A stretch of 64,000 bases of DNA from Gemmatimonadota bacterium (GCA_036679605.1 JAZDCZ010000386.1:32001-96000); one strand, 5' to 3'; numbered from the stretch's first letter, positions 16,437 through 60,329 are shown. Notes: generated by a model not told the origin, from the letters alone. Program-made: numbers and translations.

Positions 16437-17066
16437 TTGAGACTAACAGGCCTGGCCGCACTCGTTGCAATTCCCTTGGCCGAACTGGCTCCGCGAGCGG
16501 GAGGAATGGTGGGCTTCGCAGTCCTCACCATCTGGGTGAACGGTCCGATTTCCCCATTCCTGCCGTCAACTTACGAGCCGATGCTGATGGTTGTGGGTCG
16601 CGTGTACGAGCCGCTGCTGGTAGCCGTGGTCGGGACGCTGGGCACTATTTATGTCGAGTATCTGAACTACCACCTCTATCGGCGGATCATGACTCTAAAG
16701 GTCCTCGACCGGACAAAGCAGAACCAGAGTGTAAGGAAAGTGCTGCGTCTCTATTCGCGTGCGCCATTCTTCACGGTCTGGATATGTAGCTGGTCCATTT
16801 TCCCCTATTGGCCGGTGCGCTTCATGTCGCCGCTTGTCGGGTACGATGTGCGGCGTCACCTGTTCGCAACGCTTCTGGGAAGGTTCCCTCGCATTTGGTT
16901 CTTTGCGGCACTCGGTACATGGTGGAGCGTGAGTGTAGGGGCCCTATCAATGTGGTCCGCGGGGTCCATAACCCTTGCACTCCTGGTTTACTGGGTTAAG
17001 CGCCGACGTACAAAGGCGGCCAAGAGCCGTAAGGAGCTTGTTACGTTGGAGGTGGCGGAAGGATGA
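16437..17066 (+). CDS. DedA/VTT (SNARE-associated) family membrane protein
   Basis: Hydrophobic; PFLPSTYEP, VGTLGT, LFATLLGRFPR. Start uncertain because the frame is open from 16281. Confidence 0.7.
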   Translation: MRLTGLAALVAIPLAELAPRAGGMVGFAVLTIWVNGPISPFLPSTYEPMLMVVGRVYEPLLVAVVGTLGTIYVEYLNYHLYRRIMTLKVLDRTKQNQSVRKVLRLYSRAPFFTVWICSWSIFPYWPVRFMSPLVGYDVRRHLFATLLGRFPRIWFFAALGTWWSVSVGALSMWSAGSITLALLVYWVKRRRTKAAKSRKELVTLEVAEG

Positions 17067-18188: not shown

Positions 18189-19049
18189 CTAGGAAGTTGC
18201 CCCGGCCCGCCGATTGATCCGAACGCCGGCGATGCCGGCCGGAATCCCAATTGCCAACCCAACGGCGGCGTCGATGCCGTAGTGCATCTGAAGGTAAACG
18301 GTGCCGACAACGAGTAAGATATTTGGCACCAGAAAGATTGCGGCCAGTTTTTTCCATTCGTGAAACAAGGCTACAGTAGTGGCGACACTTGCGGCGACAT
18401 GCGACGACGGAAAAGCCGTGCCGAACGCCGATCCACTCCCAAGCATCCAGTAGACCAATCGAGCGCTCCATACGTCACGCACCACACCCGTGGGATTTTC
18501 GAAAGCATAGTTGGGTCCCGCGACCGGGTAGAGAGCAAAAATCGTGTAGCAAATCATGAAGGCCAGCATGGTTGAGAACAGTACGCTTCGGGCACTAGAT
18601 CTGCGGCCCCTCACGAATAGGAGTACTGTGCCCAGAATGATTATGGGATAGTAGAAAAGATATGCGACATGCAGCAATCCGGACCAAAAGACTGACGGCG
18701 CTGCCCGGATCCATTCGTACGAAATTTGGCCACCAAATATCAGGGCTTCCCAGCGCTGTACTATGGCGTCCCTGGCATAGGTGCTCTCAATGCCCAACTG
18801 GAGCGAGAGTACGCCGAGTTCACCGTAGAGAACGGGTAGCAGGAGCAGCGGGAAAATGTCGTGGACTAGTCCTCCAATTTTCATTTCGGGCTTCACGTGC
18901 GCAAAGAGGAATAATGCTGTGCCTATCAGCGCGTGCAATCCAAACAGCATCCATGTGGCCGGATCGGTCAAAGCTCCGCGATACACAATGAGTAGCGTGA
19001 GGAATATCACGTAGCCGGCGACTAGTTTGTCGACTGGTCTCACAGCCAT
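18189..19049 (-). CDS. PAP2-superfamily AUR1/IPC-synthase-like membrane phosphotransferase
   Basis: Likely start 19049; polytopic; AYLFYY, LYPVAGP, AFPSSHV, HYGID. Lacks the KxxxxxxRP phosphatase motif. Confidence 0.72.
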   Translation of the reverse strand: MAVRPVDKLVAGYVIFLTLLIVYRGALTDPATWMLFGLHALIGTALFLFAHVKPEMKIGGLVHDIFPLLLLPVLYGELGVLSLQLGIESTYARDAIVQRWEALIFGGQISYEWIRAAPSVFWSGLLHVAYLFYYPIIILGTVLLFVRGRRSSARSVLFSTMLAFMICYTIFALYPVAGPNYAFENPTGVVRDVWSARLVYWMLGSGSAFGTAFPSSHVAASVATTVALFHEWKKLAAIFLVPNILLVVGTVYLQMHYGIDAAVGLAIGIPAGIAGVRINRRAGATS

Positions 19050-20032
19050 CCCTCCGCGCGATACCATTGTGTGGTTTGTCGCAGCCCCATCTCCATGTTT
19101 ATCTCCGCACGCCACGCAGTGGCACCTTCGAGAGCCGCCGGCGAACAAGTCCATGCCGGGGCCAAGAATTCTTTGCTCTTTTCAGGCGATAGGACACTCA
19201 CAGTTCCCGTCAGTTTGGAGACGACGCCGCTGGCCCACAGAGCCGCCCGCGTAACCGTCGCTGGAATAGAAATCACAACGGGGTGAGCCCTTTTTCGATG
19301 CTCTCCCTTGAGCGCCGCGTAGACCCCCTTCACGAGTGAGCCTGATGTGACGATCTCAGGGTGACAGATGAAGTAAATGTTGTTCGCTTCGCTGTCTGTC
19401 GCGGCATACACCATACCGCGTACGAGATCTGTAACGTATACGATAGAGAGTTGTTGGCGTGGCGAGCCAAAAACGGGCACGATACCCAGTCGAGCTATCT
19501 TGAACAATCTGAGAAACTGGACGTCGCGAGGGCCATAGACACTTGGCGGTCGGACTATCGTCCAAGGTAGGCCGCCTTCCCTGACAATGTTCTCGCCGGC
19601 CAGTTTGCTCGCCCCATAGTTGCTTACCGGACGTGGCTGGTCGGTCTCCGTTTTTACTTCGTCGCGCTTTACAGGGCCGGCGGCAGCTTGGCTGCTCACA
19701 TATACAAGTCGCTGAAGATCACGGGCCGCGTCTCTCGTCGCCCCGATGAGGTTGCGGGTTCCCTCAACATTCGTCTCAAAAAACTCGCTGCGATTTCGGG
19801 CCGCAGTTAAGCCCGCTACGTGGAAGACAACGTCGACCCCCTCACATCCTTTCCTTAGCGCAACTATGTCCGAGAGGTCGCCCGGTATGCCGGTGGGGGG
19901 ACGATCAGGAAATATGCGAGCCAACTTGGACGGATCGCGAACGAGACATGTGACATCGTCTCCCCGTTCGATCAAATGATCTACCAGTGCCGATCCGACG
20001 AAACCCGTTCCACCCGTGACAAATACTTTCAT
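19040..20032 (-). CDS. Extended SDR (NAD-dependent epimerase family), candidate 3-ketoceramide/3-ketosphinganine reductase
   Basis: VTGGTGFVG, YVSS, YGASK, VRPPSVYGP; function inferred from operon context. Confidence 0.8.
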   Translation of the reverse strand: MKVFVTGGTGFVGSALVDHLIERGDDVTCLVRDPSKLARIFPDRPPTGIPGDLSDIVALRKGCEGVDVVFHVAGLTAARNRSEFFETNVEGTRNLIGATRDAARDLQRLVYVSSQAAAGPVKRDEVKTETDQPRPVSNYGASKLAGENIVREGGLPWTIVRPPSVYGPRDVQFLRLFKIARLGIVPVFGSPRQQLSIVYVTDLVRGMVYAATDSEANNIYFICHPEIVTSGSLVKGVYAALKGEHRKRAHPVVISIPATVTRAALWASGVVSKLTGTVSVLSPEKSKEFLAPAWTCSPAALEGATAWRAEINMEMGLRQTTQWYRAEGWL

Positions 20033-21156
20033 ATTGGACGGTCGTAAATCCTCAAGGTCTTATAGTGCTCGAAACCGAGGCGAACGAGTCCGTTCTTCAT
20101 TGCGGCGTTATCTTCCAAAATCCAACCGGCCTCAGCCCATCTGTATCCGAGTGCATAGCCTTTATCCCAGATCCAGTGGTACATCAGCGCATCGGCGCCG
20201 GTGTTGCGGTATTCCTTGAGTAAGCCTAGCAGAAGGATTCGAACGCGGGTGATCTTGCGCTTGGCCCAAAGAACTTTGAAAATGCCGGGGAATAGACGGC
20301 CTGATGGGTTCGTTTTCAGAGCGACATTGAAGTCAGGAAGAACGGCTGCGAAACCTATCGGCTCATCGCCGCGCTCGGCGAAGATGAGCAACTCCGGCAC
20401 CAACACCGGCTTGAGATCCTTCGCCAGGTGATCGATCTCTGCATCGGTCATTGGGACGAAGCCCCAATTGTTGTCCCATGCCTGATTGTAGATCTGCTTT
20501 ATGCGGGCGACTTCTTCGTCGTAGCGGCTCATGTCGATGCTTCTGAGAGTGATCTTTTTCCGCTTCGTGATCAGCTGTGCTCCACGCAAGAGACGATCCG
20601 GAAGGTTTGGATTCACACTGTGGTACTGGAAGAGATCCTTGGCTTTCTTGAAGCCAGCGCGCTCTACGAGATCGACGTAATATGGTGGATTATGCGGATT
20701 GAGAATCGTTGGTGGTGTATCGAATCCATCGACCAGCAGACCGCACTCGTCATTGGTGGAGAACGATGCCGGTCCTCTCATGATCGTGAGCCCTCGGCTC
20801 GACAACCATTTGGCGGCCTCTGCGAACAGTGCGTCGGCGACCGCTGCTTCGTTCTCGCACTCGAAGAACCCGAAGAACCCCACTTTGTCTTTGTGAATAT
20901 CGTTGTGCGTGTGGTTGTGGATGGCCGCAATTCGTCCAACGATCTTGCGAGTGTCCCCGTTAGCGTACGCGGTGAAATACTCGGCCTCTCCGTGCTCAAA
21001 GAACGGATTCTTCGAGCGCGATAACATCTTCCGCACATCCATACGCAAAACAGGGACCCACGTGGGGTCCCTACGGTGCAGTCTATATGGAAAGGCGATG
21101 AATCGGTTGAGGTCAGCGGCCGACTCAACCGGCCGCACGACGATACCGCCGCTCAA
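20029..21156 (-). CDS. Tandem GNAT N-acyltransferase, bacterial ceramide synthase (bCerS)-like
   Basis: GRIAA, GFFGFFEC, HNPPYY, YNQAWDNNWGFVPMT, WILEDN; directly downstream of spt. Confidence 0.78.
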   Translation of the reverse strand: MSGGIVVRPVESAADLNRFIAFPYRLHRRDPTWVPVLRMDVRKMLSRSKNPFFEHGEAEYFTAYANGDTRKIVGRIAAIHNHTHNDIHKDKVGFFGFFECENEAAVADALFAEAAKWLSSRGLTIMRGPASFSTNDECGLLVDGFDTPPTILNPHNPPYYVDLVERAGFKKAKDLFQYHSVNPNLPDRLLRGAQLITKRKKITLRSIDMSRYDEEVARIKQIYNQAWDNNWGFVPMTDAEIDHLAKDLKPVLVPELLIFAERGDEPIGFAAVLPDFNVALKTNPSGRLFPGIFKVLWAKRKITRVRILLLGLLKEYRNTGADALMYHWIWDKGYALGYRWAEAGWILEDNAAMKNGLVRLGFEHYKTLRIYDRPI

Positions 21157-22355
21157 ATAACCCCCATCTCCCTTCCAAGCTTACCGAGTACATCGAGTAC
21201 CGAATCGAGCTGGTCGTCGGTGTGTGTGGCCATGAGGCTTGCCCGCAACCGGCACTGATCGGGTGGCACCGCAGGAGGTACGACGGGATTGGTAAAGACC
21301 CCTGCCTCGAACAACTTCCTCCAGGTCATGAAGGTTCTCTCAAGAGTACCAATGAGTATCGGGATAATAGGCGTTTGTGTCGCTCCAATTTCAAAGCCGA
21401 GGTTCCGGCAACCCTCGCAGAAGCGGCGGGTGTTCTGCCATAATCTGTCTCTTCGTTCCGGCTCCTCGATCATGATTTCCAACGCAGCCAGTACTCCGGC
21501 CGTATTCGACGGCGGCAGGGCGGCCGTAAACATCAAGGGCCGGCTATGGTGCTTGAGGTAGTGTACGACACTCTCCGATGCGGCTACGAATCCACCAATT
21601 GACGCAAGTGACTTTGAGAACGTTCCGACAATGACATCGACCTCGTTTATGAGCCCGAAATGCGATGCCGTGCCGTCACCCTTGGAGCCGAGTACTCCGG
21701 TCGAATGGGCATCGTCCACGGCCAATGCAGCGCCGTACTTTTGCGCGATCTTTACCAACTCAGGGAGGTCGGCGATATCACCTTCCATCGAGTACACGCC
21801 GTCCACGATGATCATGGATCCGCGACCAGATTTTCTTTCCAGCCTGCGCTCTAGCTGGGCCAGGTCGCCATGATTGAACCGCTCCGTCTCTCCGTACGAC
21901 AACTTCGCGCCGTCAACGATGGATGCATGATCGAGCTTGTCGATGAAAACCACATCGCCCCGTCCAACGAGACCGGAGATGAGGCCGAGGTTAGCTTGGT
22001 AGCCCGTAGAAAACACCAACGCCGACTCCTTCGAGAAGAAGTCGGCCAGCCGAGCTTCGAGTTCCTCGTGTAGTTCTATGGTGCCGTTGAGGAACCGGCT
22101 GCCAGTGCAACCCGATCCGAAATTCTCCAACGCCTTTCTTGCCGCTTCTAGCACCCGCGGGTGGTGCGTGAGTCCCAGGTAGTTGTTGGAGCCCATCATA
22201 ATGCGCTCGCGACCCTCGATGACAACTACCGTATCTTCCGCCTTGGAGATCGGCTTGAAGTACGGGTACATGCCCGCCGCCTGTATTTCCCGGGCCTTGG
22301 TGAAGTTGTTGCATTTCTCGAAAAGCTGAACCTGCTGTAAGATCTCTGTGTTCAC
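21153..22355 (-). CDS. spt: Serine palmitoyltransferase (PLP alpha-oxoamine synthase family)
   Basis: GSNNYLGL, GSRFLNGT, STGYQANLG, HASIVDG, DDAHSTG, PLP-lysine motif GTFSKS, SRPLMFTAALPP. These are SPT-type rather than BioF/Kbl-type signatures. Confidence 0.82.
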   Translation of the reverse strand: MNTEILQQVQLFEKCNNFTKAREIQAAGMYPYFKPISKAEDTVVVIEGRERIMMGSNNYLGLTHHPRVLEAARKALENFGSGCTGSRFLNGTIELHEELEARLADFFSKESALVFSTGYQANLGLISGLVGRGDVVFIDKLDHASIVDGAKLSYGETERFNHGDLAQLERRLERKSGRGSMIIVDGVYSMEGDIADLPELVKIAQKYGAALAVDDAHSTGVLGSKGDGTASHFGLINEVDVIVGTFSKSLASIGGFVAASESVVHYLKHHSRPLMFTAALPPSNTAGVLAALEIMIEEPERRDRLWQNTRRFCEGCRNLGFEIGATQTPIIPILIGTLERTFMTWRKLFEAGVFTNPVVPPAVPPDQCRLRASLMATHTDDQLDSVLDVLGKLGREMGVI

Positions 22356-22398: not shown

Positions 22399-23151
22399 AT
22401 GGGTTCAGGGGCAAGTACGATAGTACAGACGGCCTGTAAAACACACAAGCCCCGCCGCGCTGCTGTTGCCCTGGCGGTTATCTCCATAACTCTATTGCCA
22501 TCAACGAGTTGGGCGCAGACTGTGACGGTGCGAGAGCCCGTTGGCCGCTCGCAGGTCTTGTCTGTGGCAGCTAGCGGCGTTGTCTTCCTAATACCACGGA
22601 CATTGAACATCCGAGAAGGACCACCCGGTTGTGCTCCCTGTGCCCGCGGCGCGATCCCGGGGTACGATCGCTGGGCGCTGACTTCACTTGACCACGGATG
22701 GTCCGCGGCTAGCAGCGTAGCGCTAGGAGGATTGGCTGCCGTAACCTGGTTCGATATGGCGCGGGGTCGGGGCAAGCAGGGGCTATCAGAGTGGTCGGCG
22801 TCGGTTGAGTCGGTCTCGTGGGCTCTTGCGACAACCGAGATATTCAAGGCGGCATTGGCTCGCAACCGGCCGATTCTCTATACTGGCGACGCCGTGGACG
22901 TCGCGGATGTGACCGACAGCCGGCGATCGCTCCCATCTGGGCATGCCTCAGCTGCCTTCGCCTTGGCAACGAGTTATGCCATCGCGCAATGGCGGCGGGG
23001 CAACAAACTTCCCGGATGGTTGGCGATGGCTGCGGCCGGTGGTGTCGGAGCAATGCGTGTTATAGCGGGTCGCCATTTCCCATCGGATGTGGTGGCGGGA
23101 GCGGCCCTGGGCACTGCAAGTGCGGTGGTGATTCAGACCATAAGGTTTTGA
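22399..23151 (+). CDS. PAP2-family lipid phosphate phosphatase
   Basis: All three motifs present: KAALARNRP, PSGH, RVIAGRHFPSD. Start uncertain. Confidence 0.85.
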   Translation: MGSGASTIVQTACKTHKPRRAAVALAVISITLLPSTSWAQTVTVREPVGRSQVLSVAASGVVFLIPRTLNIREGPPGCAPCARGAIPGYDRWALTSLDHGWSAASSVALGGLAAVTWFDMARGRGKQGLSEWSASVESVSWALATTEIFKAALARNRPILYTGDAVDVADVTDSRRSLPSGHASAAFALATSYAIAQWRRGNKLPGWLAMAAAGGVGAMRVIAGRHFPSDVVAGAALGTASAVVIQTIRF

Positions 23152-58309: not shown

Positions 58310-59014
58310 ATGTTGCTGAGACAGAGTTCCTTGCGAAAGGGCTTCGAGGCCCTTTTGAGCCCGTTCGTCGAATGGCTGATCGCCAGGCGAGTCCATCCCA
58401 ATGCACTCACTACTGTTGGCACGCTCATCTTGGTGGGTGCTTCGGTCGCATTCGGAACTGGTTGGGTAAGGCTGGGTGGCACACTTCTGTTGGTCAGTGG
58501 CGTGTTCGATATGTTGGACGGTCGGGTGGCCAGAGCGGGAGGTGCAGAGACCAAGTTCGGGGCGTTTTACGATTCGACTCTAGATCGAATTGGAGATGCC
58601 TTTCTGTATGGCGGCATATCGCTGTATTTCGTCTCTGGGGCGGTACCGGCTTGGCTCGTGGCACCGGGCATTGTGGTGGGCTTGGTGGCATTGGCTGCAT
58701 CGCTAATCGTCTCGTACGCTCGGGCCCGGGCCGAGGGACTCGGGTTGGAATGCAAGGTCGGAATCGCTCAACGCGCCGAGCGTGTATTGCTCCTTGGGGT
58801 GCCATCGCTGTTTTTCGGGGCTGGAGCCCAAAGCATCCTGTTGTTCTCGATAGTATTTCTGCTGGCTCTGACGTCGACGGTAACCGTGGTGCAGCGTATT
58901 CGTCACGTTTACAAGATCACGCGGAGAACGGCACGCAACACACAAGTTCGCCACGCCCCACCGGCGTTGGCGGAGTTCACTGGGAAAGGAAGAGGTAGTG
59001 ACCGATTCAACTAA
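58310..59014 (+). CDS. CDP-alcohol phosphatidyltransferase, probable phosphatidylinositol-phosphate synthase
   Basis: PNALT, DMLDGRVAR...GAFYDSTLDR, SYARARAEGLG, RAER; overlaps ino1. Confidence 0.85.
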   Translation: MLLRQSSLRKGFEALLSPFVEWLIARRVHPNALTTVGTLILVGASVAFGTGWVRLGGTLLLVSGVFDMLDGRVARAGGAETKFGAFYDSTLDRIGDAFLYGGISLYFVSGAVPAWLVAPGIVVGLVALAASLIVSYARARAEGLGLECKVGIAQRAERVLLLGVPSLFFGAGAQSILLFSIVFLLALTSTVTVVQRIRHVYKITRRTARNTQVRHAPPALAEFTGKGRGSDRFN

Positions 59015-60329
59015 GAGATCTGTAGCACCTCCGGAGGGGAAACTCGGTGTTCTCCTGGTCGGTCTCGGTGCTGTTGCCACTACGTATGTGGCTGGTGTTG
59101 AGAACGTTCGAAGGGGAACCGGCAAGCCGGTAGGGTCGTTGGCGGAGATGGCTACGATCCGTCTCGGGAAACGCACAGAGGGAAGGGCTCCGCGCATCCG
59201 GGAATTTGTGCCACTTCCCGGATTGAACGATCTCGTTTTTGGAGCATGGGATCCGATTCCAGATGACGGATACGAATCGGCAAAGGTGGCGGGGGTGCTC
59301 GAGACACGCCATGTGGAGCCGATTGCTGAGTTTCTGAAGGGGATCAGGCCGATGCCTGCGGTGTTCGATCAGAGTTATGTGAAGCGACTCTCGGGAACGA
59401 ACGTTAAGCAGGGTAAGAACAAGCGGGAGTTGGCGGAGCAGATCCGGGAAGACGTGCGATCGTTCAAGAAGGAACATGGCTGCAACCGGCTCGTCATGGT
59501 TTGGTGTGCTTCCACTGAGATATTTCTGCGCCCGGGGCCGGCACACGAATCGGTGGAAGCGTTTGAAAAGGCGATGGATGAGAGCGATCCGGCAATCGCA
59601 CCGTCTATGCTGTATGCGTGGGCCAGCATTATGGAGGGCGTTCCGTTCGCCAATGGCGCTCCCAATCTGTCTGTTGATGCACCGGCCCTCCAACAGCTTG
59701 CCGAGGACCGCGGTGTTCCCATTATGGGCAAGGACTTCAAGACCGGTCAGACGATGGTGAAGACCGTGGTGTCGCCGATGTTTAAGGCGCGGATGCTGGG
59801 TCTTTCGGGGTGGTATTCGACGAACATTCTAGGGAATCGCGACGGCGAGATTCTGGACGATCCGGAATCGTTCAAGACAAAGGAAGAGTCGAAGCTCGGA
59901 GTGCTGGAACATATTCTGCAACCGGAGACCTACCCCGATCTCTATAGCGACATCTACCACAAAGTTACGATCAACTACTATCCGCCTCGGGGAGACAACA
60001 AAGAAGGTTGGGACAACATCGACTTTTTTGGCTGGCTCGAATACCCGATGCAGATCAAGATAGACTTCCTGTGTCGTGATTCGATTCTGGCGGCGCCTTT
60101 GTTGCATGATCTAGCTCTCTTTATGGACCTTGCGCACCGGGCCGGCCTGTCGGGTATTCAGGAATGGCTGTCGTTCTATTTCAAGAGCCCCATGGCTGCG
60201 CAGGGATTGATCCCTGAGAACGATCTCTTCATCCAGCACACCAAGCTCAAGAACACGCTCCGTTGGCTGATGGGCGAGGAGCAGATTACGCATCTGGGAG
60301 TGGAGTACTACGAGTACGAGAAGGCGTGA
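58998..60329 (+). CDS. ino1: myo-Inositol-1-phosphate synthase
   Basis: GLGAVAT, WCASTE, NGAPN, GKDFKTGQT, NILGNRDG, YYPPRGDNKE, CRDSILAAPL, FYFKSP. Confidence 0.93.
   Translation: MTDSTKRSVAPPEGKLGVLLVGLGAVATTYVAGVENVRRGTGKPVGSLAEMATIRLGKRTEGRAPRIREFVPLPGLNDLVFGAWDPIPDDGYESAKVAGVLETRHVEPIAEFLKGIRPMPAVFDQSYVKRLSGTNVKQGKNKRELAEQIREDVRSFKKEHGCNRLVMVWCASTEIFLRPGPAHESVEAFEKAMDESDPAIAPSMLYAWASIMEGVPFANGAPNLSVDAPALQQLAEDRGVPIMGKDFKTGQTMVKTVVSPMFKARMLGLSGWYSTNILGNRDGEILDDPESFKTKEESKLGVLEHILQPETYPDLYSDIYHKVTINYYPPRGDNKEGWDNIDFFGWLEYPMQIKIDFLCRDSILAAPLLHDLALFMDLAHRAGLSGIQEWLSFYFKSPMAAQGLIPENDLFIQHTKLKNTLRWLMGEEQITHLGVEYYEYEKA

What the first reader, a model, noticed from the sequence alone, without database searches (positions are those of the whole stretch)
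18189..22355. Compact sphingolipid operon ending in an AUR1-like inositol-phosphoceramide synthase
Seen: four overlapping minus-strand genes, namely an alpha-oxoamine synthase with SPT-type GTFSKS, a tandem GNAT, an extended SDR, and a PAP2-like protein with AFPSSH/HYxxD but no KxxxxxxRP motif. Established: bacterial ceramide synthesis in Caulobacter uses Spt, a GNAT ceramide synthase and an SDR-type reductase, and AUR1-like enzymes transfer phosphoinositol to ceramide in fungi and Bacteroides. Inference: the gene order follows the pathway from serine to a headgroup-modified ceramide in a lineage (probably Gemmatimonadota) where I know of no characterised sphingolipid pathway.
Basis: partly seen in the sequence, partly recalled or inferred. 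Interest (0 to 1): 0.82.

Follow-up and report, generated by a model that had tools for sequence, protein, structure and literature searches.

The report
Ceramide operon with uncharacterised headgroup transferase
Four overlapping genes in a Gemmatimonadales bacterium likely make ceramide by the known bacterial route, and the fourth, an untested enzyme predicted to fold like the yeast inositol-ceramide synthase but unrelated to the known Bacteroides one, is predicted to cap it with a phosphate-linked headgroup, most likely inositol here.

Summary
Genes 1-3 are the best genome-wide matches of Caulobacter Spt, bCerS and CerR (44, 39, 33% identity). Gene 1 groups with SPTs, not BioF/Kbl/HemA (100/100). 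Gene 4 has an Aur1-like predicted fold and His-His-Asp triad without phosphatase motifs. It is not an orthologue of the Bacteroides IPC synthase BT_1522 (19% identity, no NF052609 match). Its closer Bacteroidales relative follows a cerR-like gene, and one Prevotella record carries it beside a separate BT_1522-type gene. The headgroup is therefore open. For inositol: PIP synthase and MIPS lie 36 kb away in this window; one family lacks pssA/psd (0 of 11) yet keeps gene 4 (10 of 11) and MIPS (11 of 11); one genome lacks gene 4 and both PI genes. For ethanolamine: the Bacteroidales relative fits a Bacteroides EPC synthase that a 2022 study could not find. The four-gene order recurs in 44 of 61 loci. 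The scan noted this operon before on other DNA. Verdict: known backbone pathway plus an uncharacterised transferase subfamily; nothing is biochemically shown.

The parts
21153..22355 (-). spt: serine palmitoyltransferase (PLP lysine in GTFSKS, K248)
   Evidence: Best NCBIfam model NF047600 SPT, 533 bits (cut-off 640), against BioF 404 and Kbl 382. Best PDB sequence is SPT 8guh/3a2b, 430 bits, against 315 for the best BioF/Kbl-type entry. Tree clade with Caulobacter and Prevotella Spt, 100/100.
20029..21156 (-). bcerS: bacterial ceramide synthase, tandem GNAT
   Evidence: 39% identity over 383 aa to Caulobacter bCerS, and its only hit in this genome. 21 of 23 invariant columns are kept in bCerS. 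Tandem GNAT fold.
19040..20032 (-). cerR: ceramide reductase, extended SDR
   Evidence: 33% identity over 342 aa to Caulobacter CerR and its best hit in the genome (111 bits against 45 for the next). Shares the C-terminal WYRAxGWL.
18189..19043 (-). Aur1-fold PAP2_3 membrane enzyme, predicted phospholipid:ceramide headgroup transferase (alternative start ATG 19049)
   Evidence: PF14378. H216/H255/D259 (numbered from 19046) invariant in 45 of 45. Fold search ranks Aur1 9vj4 and 9ivc first. Not BT_1522 family.
22399..23151 (+). Divergent canonical PAP2 phosphatase (KxxxxxxRP, PSGH, RxxxxxHxxxD); possible accessory lipid-phosphate phosphatase, link unproven
   Evidence: PF01569, E 9e-21; motifs read from the sequence. 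Beside spt in 19 of 61 loci.
58310..59014 (+). Phosphatidylinositol-phosphate synthase-like CDP-alcohol phosphotransferase (predicted donor supply, unlinked)
   Evidence: NF045883 157.5 bits (cut-off 170). 35% identity to the BT_1523-type protein.
58998..60329 (+). myo-inositol-1-phosphate synthase (MIPS), overlapping the PIP synthase gene
   Evidence: PF07994 E 4e-95 and PF01658. 54% identity to the BT_1526-type protein.

Best explanation
These four overlapping genes likely form one operon that makes a ceramide and is predicted to cap it with a phosphate-linked headgroup, most likely phosphoinositol. Spt would condense serine with a long acyl thioester; bCerS would add the N-acyl chain; CerR would reduce the 3-keto group. 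These three steps are inferred from orthology to the tested Caulobacter enzymes, and the gene order follows the bacterial order proposed in PMC11087976. The Aur1-fold enzyme would take the phospho-headgroup from a glycerophospholipid through a phosphohistidine (H255, activated by D259), pass it to ceramide with H216 as base, and release diacylglycerol. This is inferred from the Aur1 mechanism in PMC13133130. The donor would be phosphatidylinositol made by the PIP synthase and MIPS pair at 58310-60329. The donor is the weakest step.
For: Backbone: best matches of all three Caulobacter enzymes; SPT clade 100/100 apart from BioF, Kbl and HemA, with the genome's other alpha-oxoamine synthase being tdh-linked Kbl. 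The genes travel together: spt 121, bcerS 133, gene 4 112 of 201 phylum genomes, with similar family patterns; four-gene order in 44 of 61 loci, reshuffled with gene 4 kept in 3 more. Transferase: Aur1 is the top fold match over nearly the whole chain (Foldseek E 6e-5, TM 0.62; Z 17.5, rmsd 4.0, 255 of 285 residues aligned). Triad spacing is 39+4, as in Aur1 H255/H294/D298. No C1 motif, and no Arg at the C3 position in 137 of 137 representatives with a readable motif. Where gene 4 is missing, other headgroup-type genes lie next to the operon: GT4 glycosyltransferases, LPG-synthase-TM, HAD and CDP-alcohol transferases, and an LTA-synthase-family gene in Rubrobacter. Inositol: PIP synthase and MIPS are in this window. 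Family f6 lacks pssA and psd (0 of 11 each, including single-contig genomes) yet keeps spt, bcerS and gene 4 (10 of 11 each) and MIPS (11 of 11). The two f6 genomes checked hold only PgsA-, PIPS- and Cls-like CDP-alcohol transferases. The two gene-4 genomes that seemed to lack MIPS break at that locus (G163 MIPS split over two contigs, G027 PIPS at a contig edge). G043 (99% complete) keeps spt-bcerS-cerR but lacks gene 4, PIPS and MIPS.
Against: No activity or lipid was measured. Gene 1 is below the NF047600 cut-off (533 against 640). Gene 4 is not a BT_1522 orthologue: 19% identity, 13 bits on the family profile against 136-146 for a different Bacteroidales gene that follows a cerR-like SDR. 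The Prevotella record holds both genes. BT_1522 deletion removes nearly all IPC in B. thetaiotaomicron (PMC8791184, PMC9246714), which suggests this family is not the main IPC synthase in Bacteroidales; I did not check B. thetaiotaomicron itself for the gene. The auxiliary Aur1 His293, kept in BT_1522 (HHY), is absent (MHY or FHY). MIPS is phylum-wide (190 of 201), so its presence says little. Gene 4 is missing from the operon in G110, G144, G153 and G154, which keep MIPS. The co-loss argument rests on one informative genome, since G097 belongs to a family without gene 4 (0 of 3). LpxE, a phosphatase, scores Z 16.5 (161 aligned), 1.0 below Aur1. PG is available in f6 too.
Confidence: 0.5

Rival explanations
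1. Same ceramide backbone, but gene 4 would be an ethanolamine-phosphoceramide (EPC/PE-DHC) synthase, or a transferase of relaxed donor choice that uses PE where PE is abundant and PI or PG elsewhere.
For: The closest Bacteroidales relatives sit directly after a cerR-like SDR in a Prevotella and a B. finegoldii record. They share PVxGP, AFPSSH and VYxQxHY with gene 4. The Prevotella record also has a separate BT_1522-type gene in a PIPS-GtrA-PgpA cluster. PE-DHC is made by all Bacteroides tested (PMC10191378); no EPC synthase was found by homology, and a trace of IPC persists without BT1522 (PMC8791184). This genome has pssA and psd.
Against: Family f6 keeps gene 4 without pssA or psd; so does G167. 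G043 keeps pssA and psd but lacks gene 4. Only three Bacteroidales records were seen, and the tree does not resolve their place among Gemmatimonadota rows.
Confidence: 0.25
2. Gene 4 would transfer phosphoglycerol from PG, giving ceramide phosphoglycerol.
For: A PgsA-like gene is present here and in the f6 genomes checked, so PG fits the psd-less family equally well. A probable phosphorylglycerol-DHC is reported in Porphyromonas (PMC9246714, section 10).
Against: It does not explain the joint absence of gene 4 and the PI genes in G043. No PG-using Aur1-fold enzyme came up in any call.
Confidence: 0.1
3. Gene 4 would be a hydrolase (lipid phosphatase or phospholipase-C-like) acting on sphingolipid phosphates, and the operon would stop at free ceramide.
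For: LpxE and PgpB are the best sequence-profile hits in PDB (E about 1e-3) and LpxE is third by fold. Databases name orthologues 'phosphatase PAP2 family protein'. Gene 4 is dispensable in several genomes.
Against: The phosphate-binding C1 Lys/Arg and C3 Arg of PAP2 phosphatases are absent throughout. The Aur1 match covers the extra N-terminal helices (255 against 161 residues aligned).
Confidence: 0.1
4. Gene 1 would be BioF, as databases annotate it, or condense another amino acid, so that the product is a non-sphingoid amino lipid.
For: Orthologues are annotated 8-amino-7-oxononanoate synthase. The score is below every SPT equivalog cut-off.
Against: SPT clade 100/100 excluding BioF, Kbl and HemA references. 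Flanked by bCerS and CerR matches, not by bio genes.
Confidence: 0.05

Closest known systems
Caulobacter crescentus Spt / bCerS / CerR (CCNA_01220 / 01212 / 01222; PMC11087976)
   Same: All three genes are the best genome-wide matches: 44, 39 and 33% identity over nearly full length.
   Different: Here the three are fused into one overlapping unit in reaction order. There is no acyl-ACP synthetase-like or cpg headgroup gene beside them, and an Aur1-fold gene follows.
Saccharomyces cerevisiae Aur1 IPC synthase (PDB 9vj4, 9ivc; PMC13133130)
   Same: Predicted fold over 255 of 285 residues; His-His-Asp triad with the same spacing; AFPSxH and HYxxD; no phosphatase C1 motif.
   Different: 15-19% identity; no His293 equivalent; no Kei1-like partner seen; donor untested.
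Bacteroides thetaiotaomicron BT_1522 PI-dihydroceramide synthase (NF052609; PMC9246714, PMC8791184)
   Same: Same Pfam family (PF14378), collinear, similar motifs. This genome also has BT_1523- and BT_1526-like genes.
   Different: 19% identity, separate clade, no NF052609 match. BT_1522 lies with the inositol genes, gene 4 with the ceramide genes.
Uncharacterised cerR-linked PAP2 of Bacteroidales (B. finegoldii WP_237923849.1)
   Same: Same subfamily motifs (PVxGP, AFPSSH, VYxQxHY), same position right after the SDR, 136-146 bits on the family profile.
   Different: 26-29% identity; not linked to spt or bcerS there; no function described in the papers searched.

Membership tests
Serine palmitoyltransferase | Groups with tested SPTs apart from BioF, Kbl and HemA | tested here: met
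   18-row clade, 100/100, in a 35-row tree; best PDB match is SPT
Serine palmitoyltransferase | Reaches an NCBIfam SPT equivalog cut-off | tested here: not met
   NF047600 533 of 640, NF047599 429 of 500, NF047603 360 of 670; these models are lineage-specific
Serine palmitoyltransferase | Condenses serine with long acyl thioester | not testable with these tools
   needs an assay
bCerS (Caulobacter CCNA_01212) | Full-length homology and best match in the genome | tested here: met
   39% over 383 aa, E 5e-82, single hit; 21 of 23 invariant columns shared
CerR (Caulobacter CCNA_01222) | Full-length homology, best match in the genome, linked to spt and bcerS | tested here: met
   33% over 342 aa; 111 against 45 bits for the next SDR
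CerR (Caulobacter CCNA_01222) | Reduces 3-keto-ceramide; periplasm-facing | not testable with these tools
   needs an assay and localisation
Aur1/Ipt1-like lipid phosphotransferases (PF14378) | His-His-Asp triad without the phosphatase C1 motif and C3 Arg | tested here: met
Aur1/Ipt1-like lipid phosphotransferases (PF14378) | Aur1 fold including N-terminal helices | tested here: met
   Z 17.5, rmsd 4.0, 255 aligned; LpxE 16.5, rmsd 2.7, 161 aligned
Bacterial PI-dihydroceramide synthase (BT_1522, NF052609) | Orthology or model match | tested here: not met
   No NCBIfam match at E 0.001, while the BT_1522-type control scores 561 of 480; 19% identity; separate clade
Bacterial PI-dihydroceramide synthase (BT_1522, NF052609) | Host makes PI (MIPS plus PIP synthase) | tested here: met
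   window 58310-60329; genes only, lipid not measured
Bacterial PI-dihydroceramide synthase (BT_1522, NF052609) | PI is the donor | not testable with these tools
   genome content points both ways
Canonical PAP2 lipid phosphatases (PgpB, LpxE) | KxxxxxxRP and SRxxxxxHxxxD motifs | tested here: not met
   KxxxxxxRP in 0 of 45 and 0 of 150; residue at His-6 is Ala, Thr, Val or Ser
BioF / Kbl | Groups with BioF or Kbl; bio or tdh context | tested here: not met

The most novel reading that the evidence does not exclude
Gene 4 defines a second, widespread bacterial family of Aur1-fold phosphosphingolipid synthases, tied to cerR from Gemmatimonadota to Bacteroidales and separate from BT_1522. Its donor has shifted between lineages: inositol in PE-less Gemmatimonadota, ethanolamine in gut Bacteroides, where it is the unassigned synthase of their main sphingolipid, ceramide phosphoethanolamine.
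Probability: 0.3. Interest if true: 0.75.

Novelty: new variant of a known kind. Interest (0 to 1): 0.5.

Why it matters
If right, a large share of an abundant, mostly uncultured phylum (95 of 96 genomes of this family, about 120 of 201 in the phylum sample) carries a sphingolipid pathway that databases hide under BioF, N-acetyltransferase and phosphatase labels. That bears on the source of environmental ceramides and phosphosphingolipids. The backbone itself is known, and Spt-like genes were already predicted in 38 phyla (PMC11334938). The more useful point is gene 4: an untested Aur1-fold subfamily whose Bacteroidales member gives one knockout target, in a tractable gut bacterium, for the unassigned ceramide-phosphoethanolamine step.

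Tried and rejected
Gene 1 as BioF or Kbl: rejected by tree and context. Gene 4 as BT_1522 orthologue: rejected. Fusions of gene 4: a 'longer' search found none among 7993 candidates, which is weak evidence; one 638-aa relative has a C-terminal half unrelated to bCerS. Viral contigs: no relative. Plasmid tblastn with gene 4 alone found nothing, although the profile later found the Prevotella relative, so single-sequence blanks are unreliable. Pseudomonadota sample: 2 of 201 matched the profile, one full-length and not beside ceramide genes in the 3.6 kb seen; Caulobacter itself had no match. MIPS was not found in the 1.77-Mb Prevotella record, which may not be the whole genome; not used. Promoter and terminator scan: at chance level. 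Sequencing runs: no RNA holder listed. The first gene-4 tree was only a quick tree with long branches; rebuilt with 19 of 30 rows, the backbone stayed unresolved. Whether B. fragilis or B. thetaiotaomicron carry the cerR-linked gene could not be tested, as no whole genome of either was reachable. Literature: no paper held all of 'bacterial ceramide synthase', 'serine palmitoyltransferase' and 'Gemmatimonad', nor 'Bacteroid', 'phosphoethanolamine', 'ceramide' and 'PAP2'. Searches (12 listed; 2 listed) showed nothing on Gemmatimonadota sphingolipids by title or abstract; one search was uninformative. The 2022 Nat Chem Biol paper on bCerS/CerR was not seen, and the supplement of PMC11334938 was unreadable; either may already list Gemmatimonadota as predicted producers.
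Full report
Observation. The four minus-strand genes are present as described: 22355-21153, 21156-20029, 20032-19040 and about 19043-18189. They are joined by 4-bp stop/start overlaps; gene 4 may start 6 nt earlier at ATG 19049. Named close relatives of gene 2 are from Gemmatimonadales or Gemmatimonadota. Databases label orthologues of the four genes 8-amino-7-oxononanoate synthase, N-acetyltransferase, NAD(P)-dependent oxidoreductase and phosphatase PAP2 family protein.

Backbone genes. Gene 1 scores best on the Bacteroidota SPT model NF047600 (533 bits, cut-off 640), ahead of BioF (404) and Kbl (382). Its best solved relatives are SPTs 8guh and 3a2b at 430 bits. I fetched the Caulobacter vibrioides cluster with a published spt primer; the bcerS and cerR starts match the published primers. 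Caulobacter Spt, bCerS and CerR each find the window gene as best hit in this genome: 44% (315 bits against 189 for the tdh-linked Kbl), 39% (only hit) and 33% (111 against 45 bits). In a 35-row tree gene 1 lies in an 18-row clade (100/100) with Caulobacter Spt, a Prevotella protein that passes NF047600, and Rubrobacter and Nonomuraea proteins; BioF, Kbl and HemA references lie outside. Gene 2 has no Pfam or NCBIfam match, nor does Caulobacter bCerS in NCBIfam; its model is a tandem GNAT. PMC11087976 (parts 1-2 of 4 and the supplement read) gives the proposed order Spt, bCerS, CerR, which is the gene order here.

Conservation. In one sample of 201 phylum genomes, spt matched 121 (E 1e-95; one at 45% identity is probably not an orthologue), bcerS 133 and gene 4 112. 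The window's family has 95, 95 and 89 of 96; families f2 and f7 mostly lack them. I fetched 60 of the bcerS loci, chosen for long contigs and spread over families. With the window, 44 of 61 have spt-bcerS-cerR-gene 4, 3 have cerR-spt-bcerS-gene 4, 10 have the three backbone genes only and 4 differ. Kin are not independent, so these counts show conservation, not a statistic. The tallies include one unpublished genome, G157, on which no claim rests alone.

Gene 4. It matches PF14378. In 45 orthologues H216, H255 and D259 (numbered from 19046), AFPSSH and PVxGP are invariant. The spacing equals that of the Aur1 triad H255/H294/D298, whose mutation abolishes IPC synthesis (PMC13133130; passages and section 11 read). 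KxxxxxxRP occurs in 0 of 45 orthologues and 0 of 150 representatives, and the C3 arginine is replaced in all 137 readable cases. The model (pLDDT 95.8) matches Aur1 best: Foldseek E 6e-5, and Z 17.5 with rmsd 4.0 over 255 residues; LpxE follows at Z 16.5, rmsd 2.7, over 161. The subfamily is large: 3191 clusters at E 1e-10, with atlas neighbours in Actinomycetota, Gemmatimonadota and Acidobacteriota. So it works like an Aur1-type phosphotransferase by motif and fold.

It is not a member of the one characterised bacterial IPC synthase family. A BT_1522-type protein, fetched with a published BT_1523 primer, passes NF052609 (561 of 480). Gene 4 has no NCBIfam match, is 19% identical to that protein and gives it 13 bits on its own family profile. 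A Prevotella record and a B. finegoldii record carry a gene scoring 146 and 136 bits directly after a cerR-like SDR. The Prevotella record also has a separate BT_1522-type gene in a PIPS-GtrA-PgpA cluster. In a 19-row tree the BT_1522-type proteins fall in a separate supported clade (97/97); the backbone joining the cerR-linked and Gemmatimonadota rows is unresolved. PMC8791184 (passages) reports that BT1522 deletion leaves under 1% IPC and that no EPC synthase was found by homology. PMC9246714 (passages, section 10) shows PE-DHC unchanged in that mutant. PMC10191378 (passages) says all Bacteroides tested make PE-DHC, and PMC12132519 (passages) gives EPC as 26% of negative-mode signal in B. 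fragilis. The Bacteroidales gene is thus a candidate EPC synthase. Only three records were seen, and B. thetaiotaomicron itself was not checked.

Which donor here? This genome encodes PIP synthase-like and MIPS genes in the same window, and also PgsA, PssA and Psd, so PI, PE and PG are all predicted. For PI: family f6 has neither pssA nor psd (0 of 11 each) but keeps spt, bcerS and gene 4 (10 of 11 each) and MIPS (11 of 11). Two single-contig f6 genomes hold three CDP-alcohol transferases: PgsA-like, PIPS beside MIPS, and a PgsA/Cls-like one. PE made by a phospholipase-D-type enzyme (recalled, not tested) is not excluded. Four genomes with a full-length bcerS match lacked MIPS. G163 and G027 break at that locus and have gene 4; G043 and G097 lack PIPS, MIPS and gene 4. 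Against: G097's family lacks gene 4 anyway; G110, G144, G153 and G154 lack gene 4 but keep MIPS; MIPS is in 190 of 201 genomes; PG fits f6 as well. I put PI at 0.5, PE or relaxed donor at 0.25, PG at 0.1, hydrolase at 0.1 and non-sphingoid product at 0.05.

The fourth slot looks like a headgroup module. Where gene 4 is absent, the backbone genes lie beside GT4 glycosyltransferases, LPG-synthase-TM, HAD and CDP-alcohol transferase genes, or an LTA-synthase-family gene in Rubrobacter.

Mechanism, shown and inferred. Shown here: gene arrangement, homologies, motifs, conservation and gene content. Predicted: folds. Inferred from orthologues: the three backbone reactions. Inferred from Aur1: phosphohistidine transfer to ceramide. 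Guessed from genome content: the donor. Nothing was assayed.

Novelty. The backbone is known. PMC11334938 (passages, section 20; supplement unreadable) already extends Spt-like genes to 38 phyla, though its main text does not name Gemmatimonadota. Searches found no paper on Gemmatimonadota sphingolipids or on a PAP2-type EPC synthase in Bacteroides; the library lacks most subscription papers, including the 2022 Nat Chem Biol study, which I did not see. 10.1101/2025.05.02.651985 (passages) added only that BT1522 matters for gut fitness. This scan has noted the same operon and the Bacteroides lead on other DNA; those notes are unchecked and are not counted as support. Rating: new variant of a known kind, interest 0.5.

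Noticed in passing
window 58310-60329: Overlapping PIP synthase-like and MIPS genes; MIPS is found in 190 of 201 phylum genomes, so most Gemmatimonadota may make inositol lipids whether or not they have the ceramide operon. In 32 genomes where I could read both positions on one contig, MIPS lies a median 48 kb from bcerS, probably plain synteny.
   Followed up: partly
G058, G082, G196 and others of family f6 (loci L072, L074, L227-L233): No pssA or psd in 11 of 11 genomes; proteins from two are named Candidatus Palauibacter. These may be PE-less Gram-negative bacteria whose membranes rest on PG, PI and sphingolipids.
   Followed up: partly
L071 3629-9593; L078 9243-14910: In two f2 genomes spt-bcerS-cerR is followed by LPG-synthase-TM or HAD, CDP-alcohol transferase, Gfo/Idh/MocA oxidoreductase and (L071) a class III aminotransferase; this resembles the 'alternative' inositol-lipid cluster of PMC9246714, perhaps with an amino-cyclitol headgroup.
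   Followed up: partly
L076 8103-10287; L184 9584-10834; L082 4255-5427; L085 3457-5895: GT4 glycosyltransferases beside the ceramide genes where gene 4 is absent: candidate glycosphingolipid synthases.
   Followed up: partly
L203 4716-10308 (Rubrobacter radiotolerans plasmid 1): spt-bcerS-cerR in the same order, followed by an LTA-synthase-family gene, on a plasmid of a cultured Gram-positive bacterium.
   Followed up: no
L194, L196, L197: Paralogues of gene 4 sit between two extended SDR genes (SDR-PAP2-SDR) away from spt in several genomes.
   Followed up: no
window 16437-17066: VTT/DedA-domain membrane protein near the operon's end in 8 of 61 loci; possible lipid scramblase, link unproven.
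   Followed up: no
G000 contig C154 31531-36474 (L105, L107): Nucleotidyltransferase-like and CDP-alcohol transferase genes, one 28% identical to the Caulobacter cluster's CDP-alcohol transferase. The assembly is 6.7 Mb with 6.3% contamination against 3.7 Mb for its congener, so this contig and the PAP2_3 genes on C15 and C366 may be foreign.
   Followed up: no
L201-L225 source collection: Several records filed as plasmids are chromosome-sized (Prevotella NC_022111.1, 1.77 Mb; Nonomuraea NZ_LT559118.1, 11.9 Mb).
   Followed up: no
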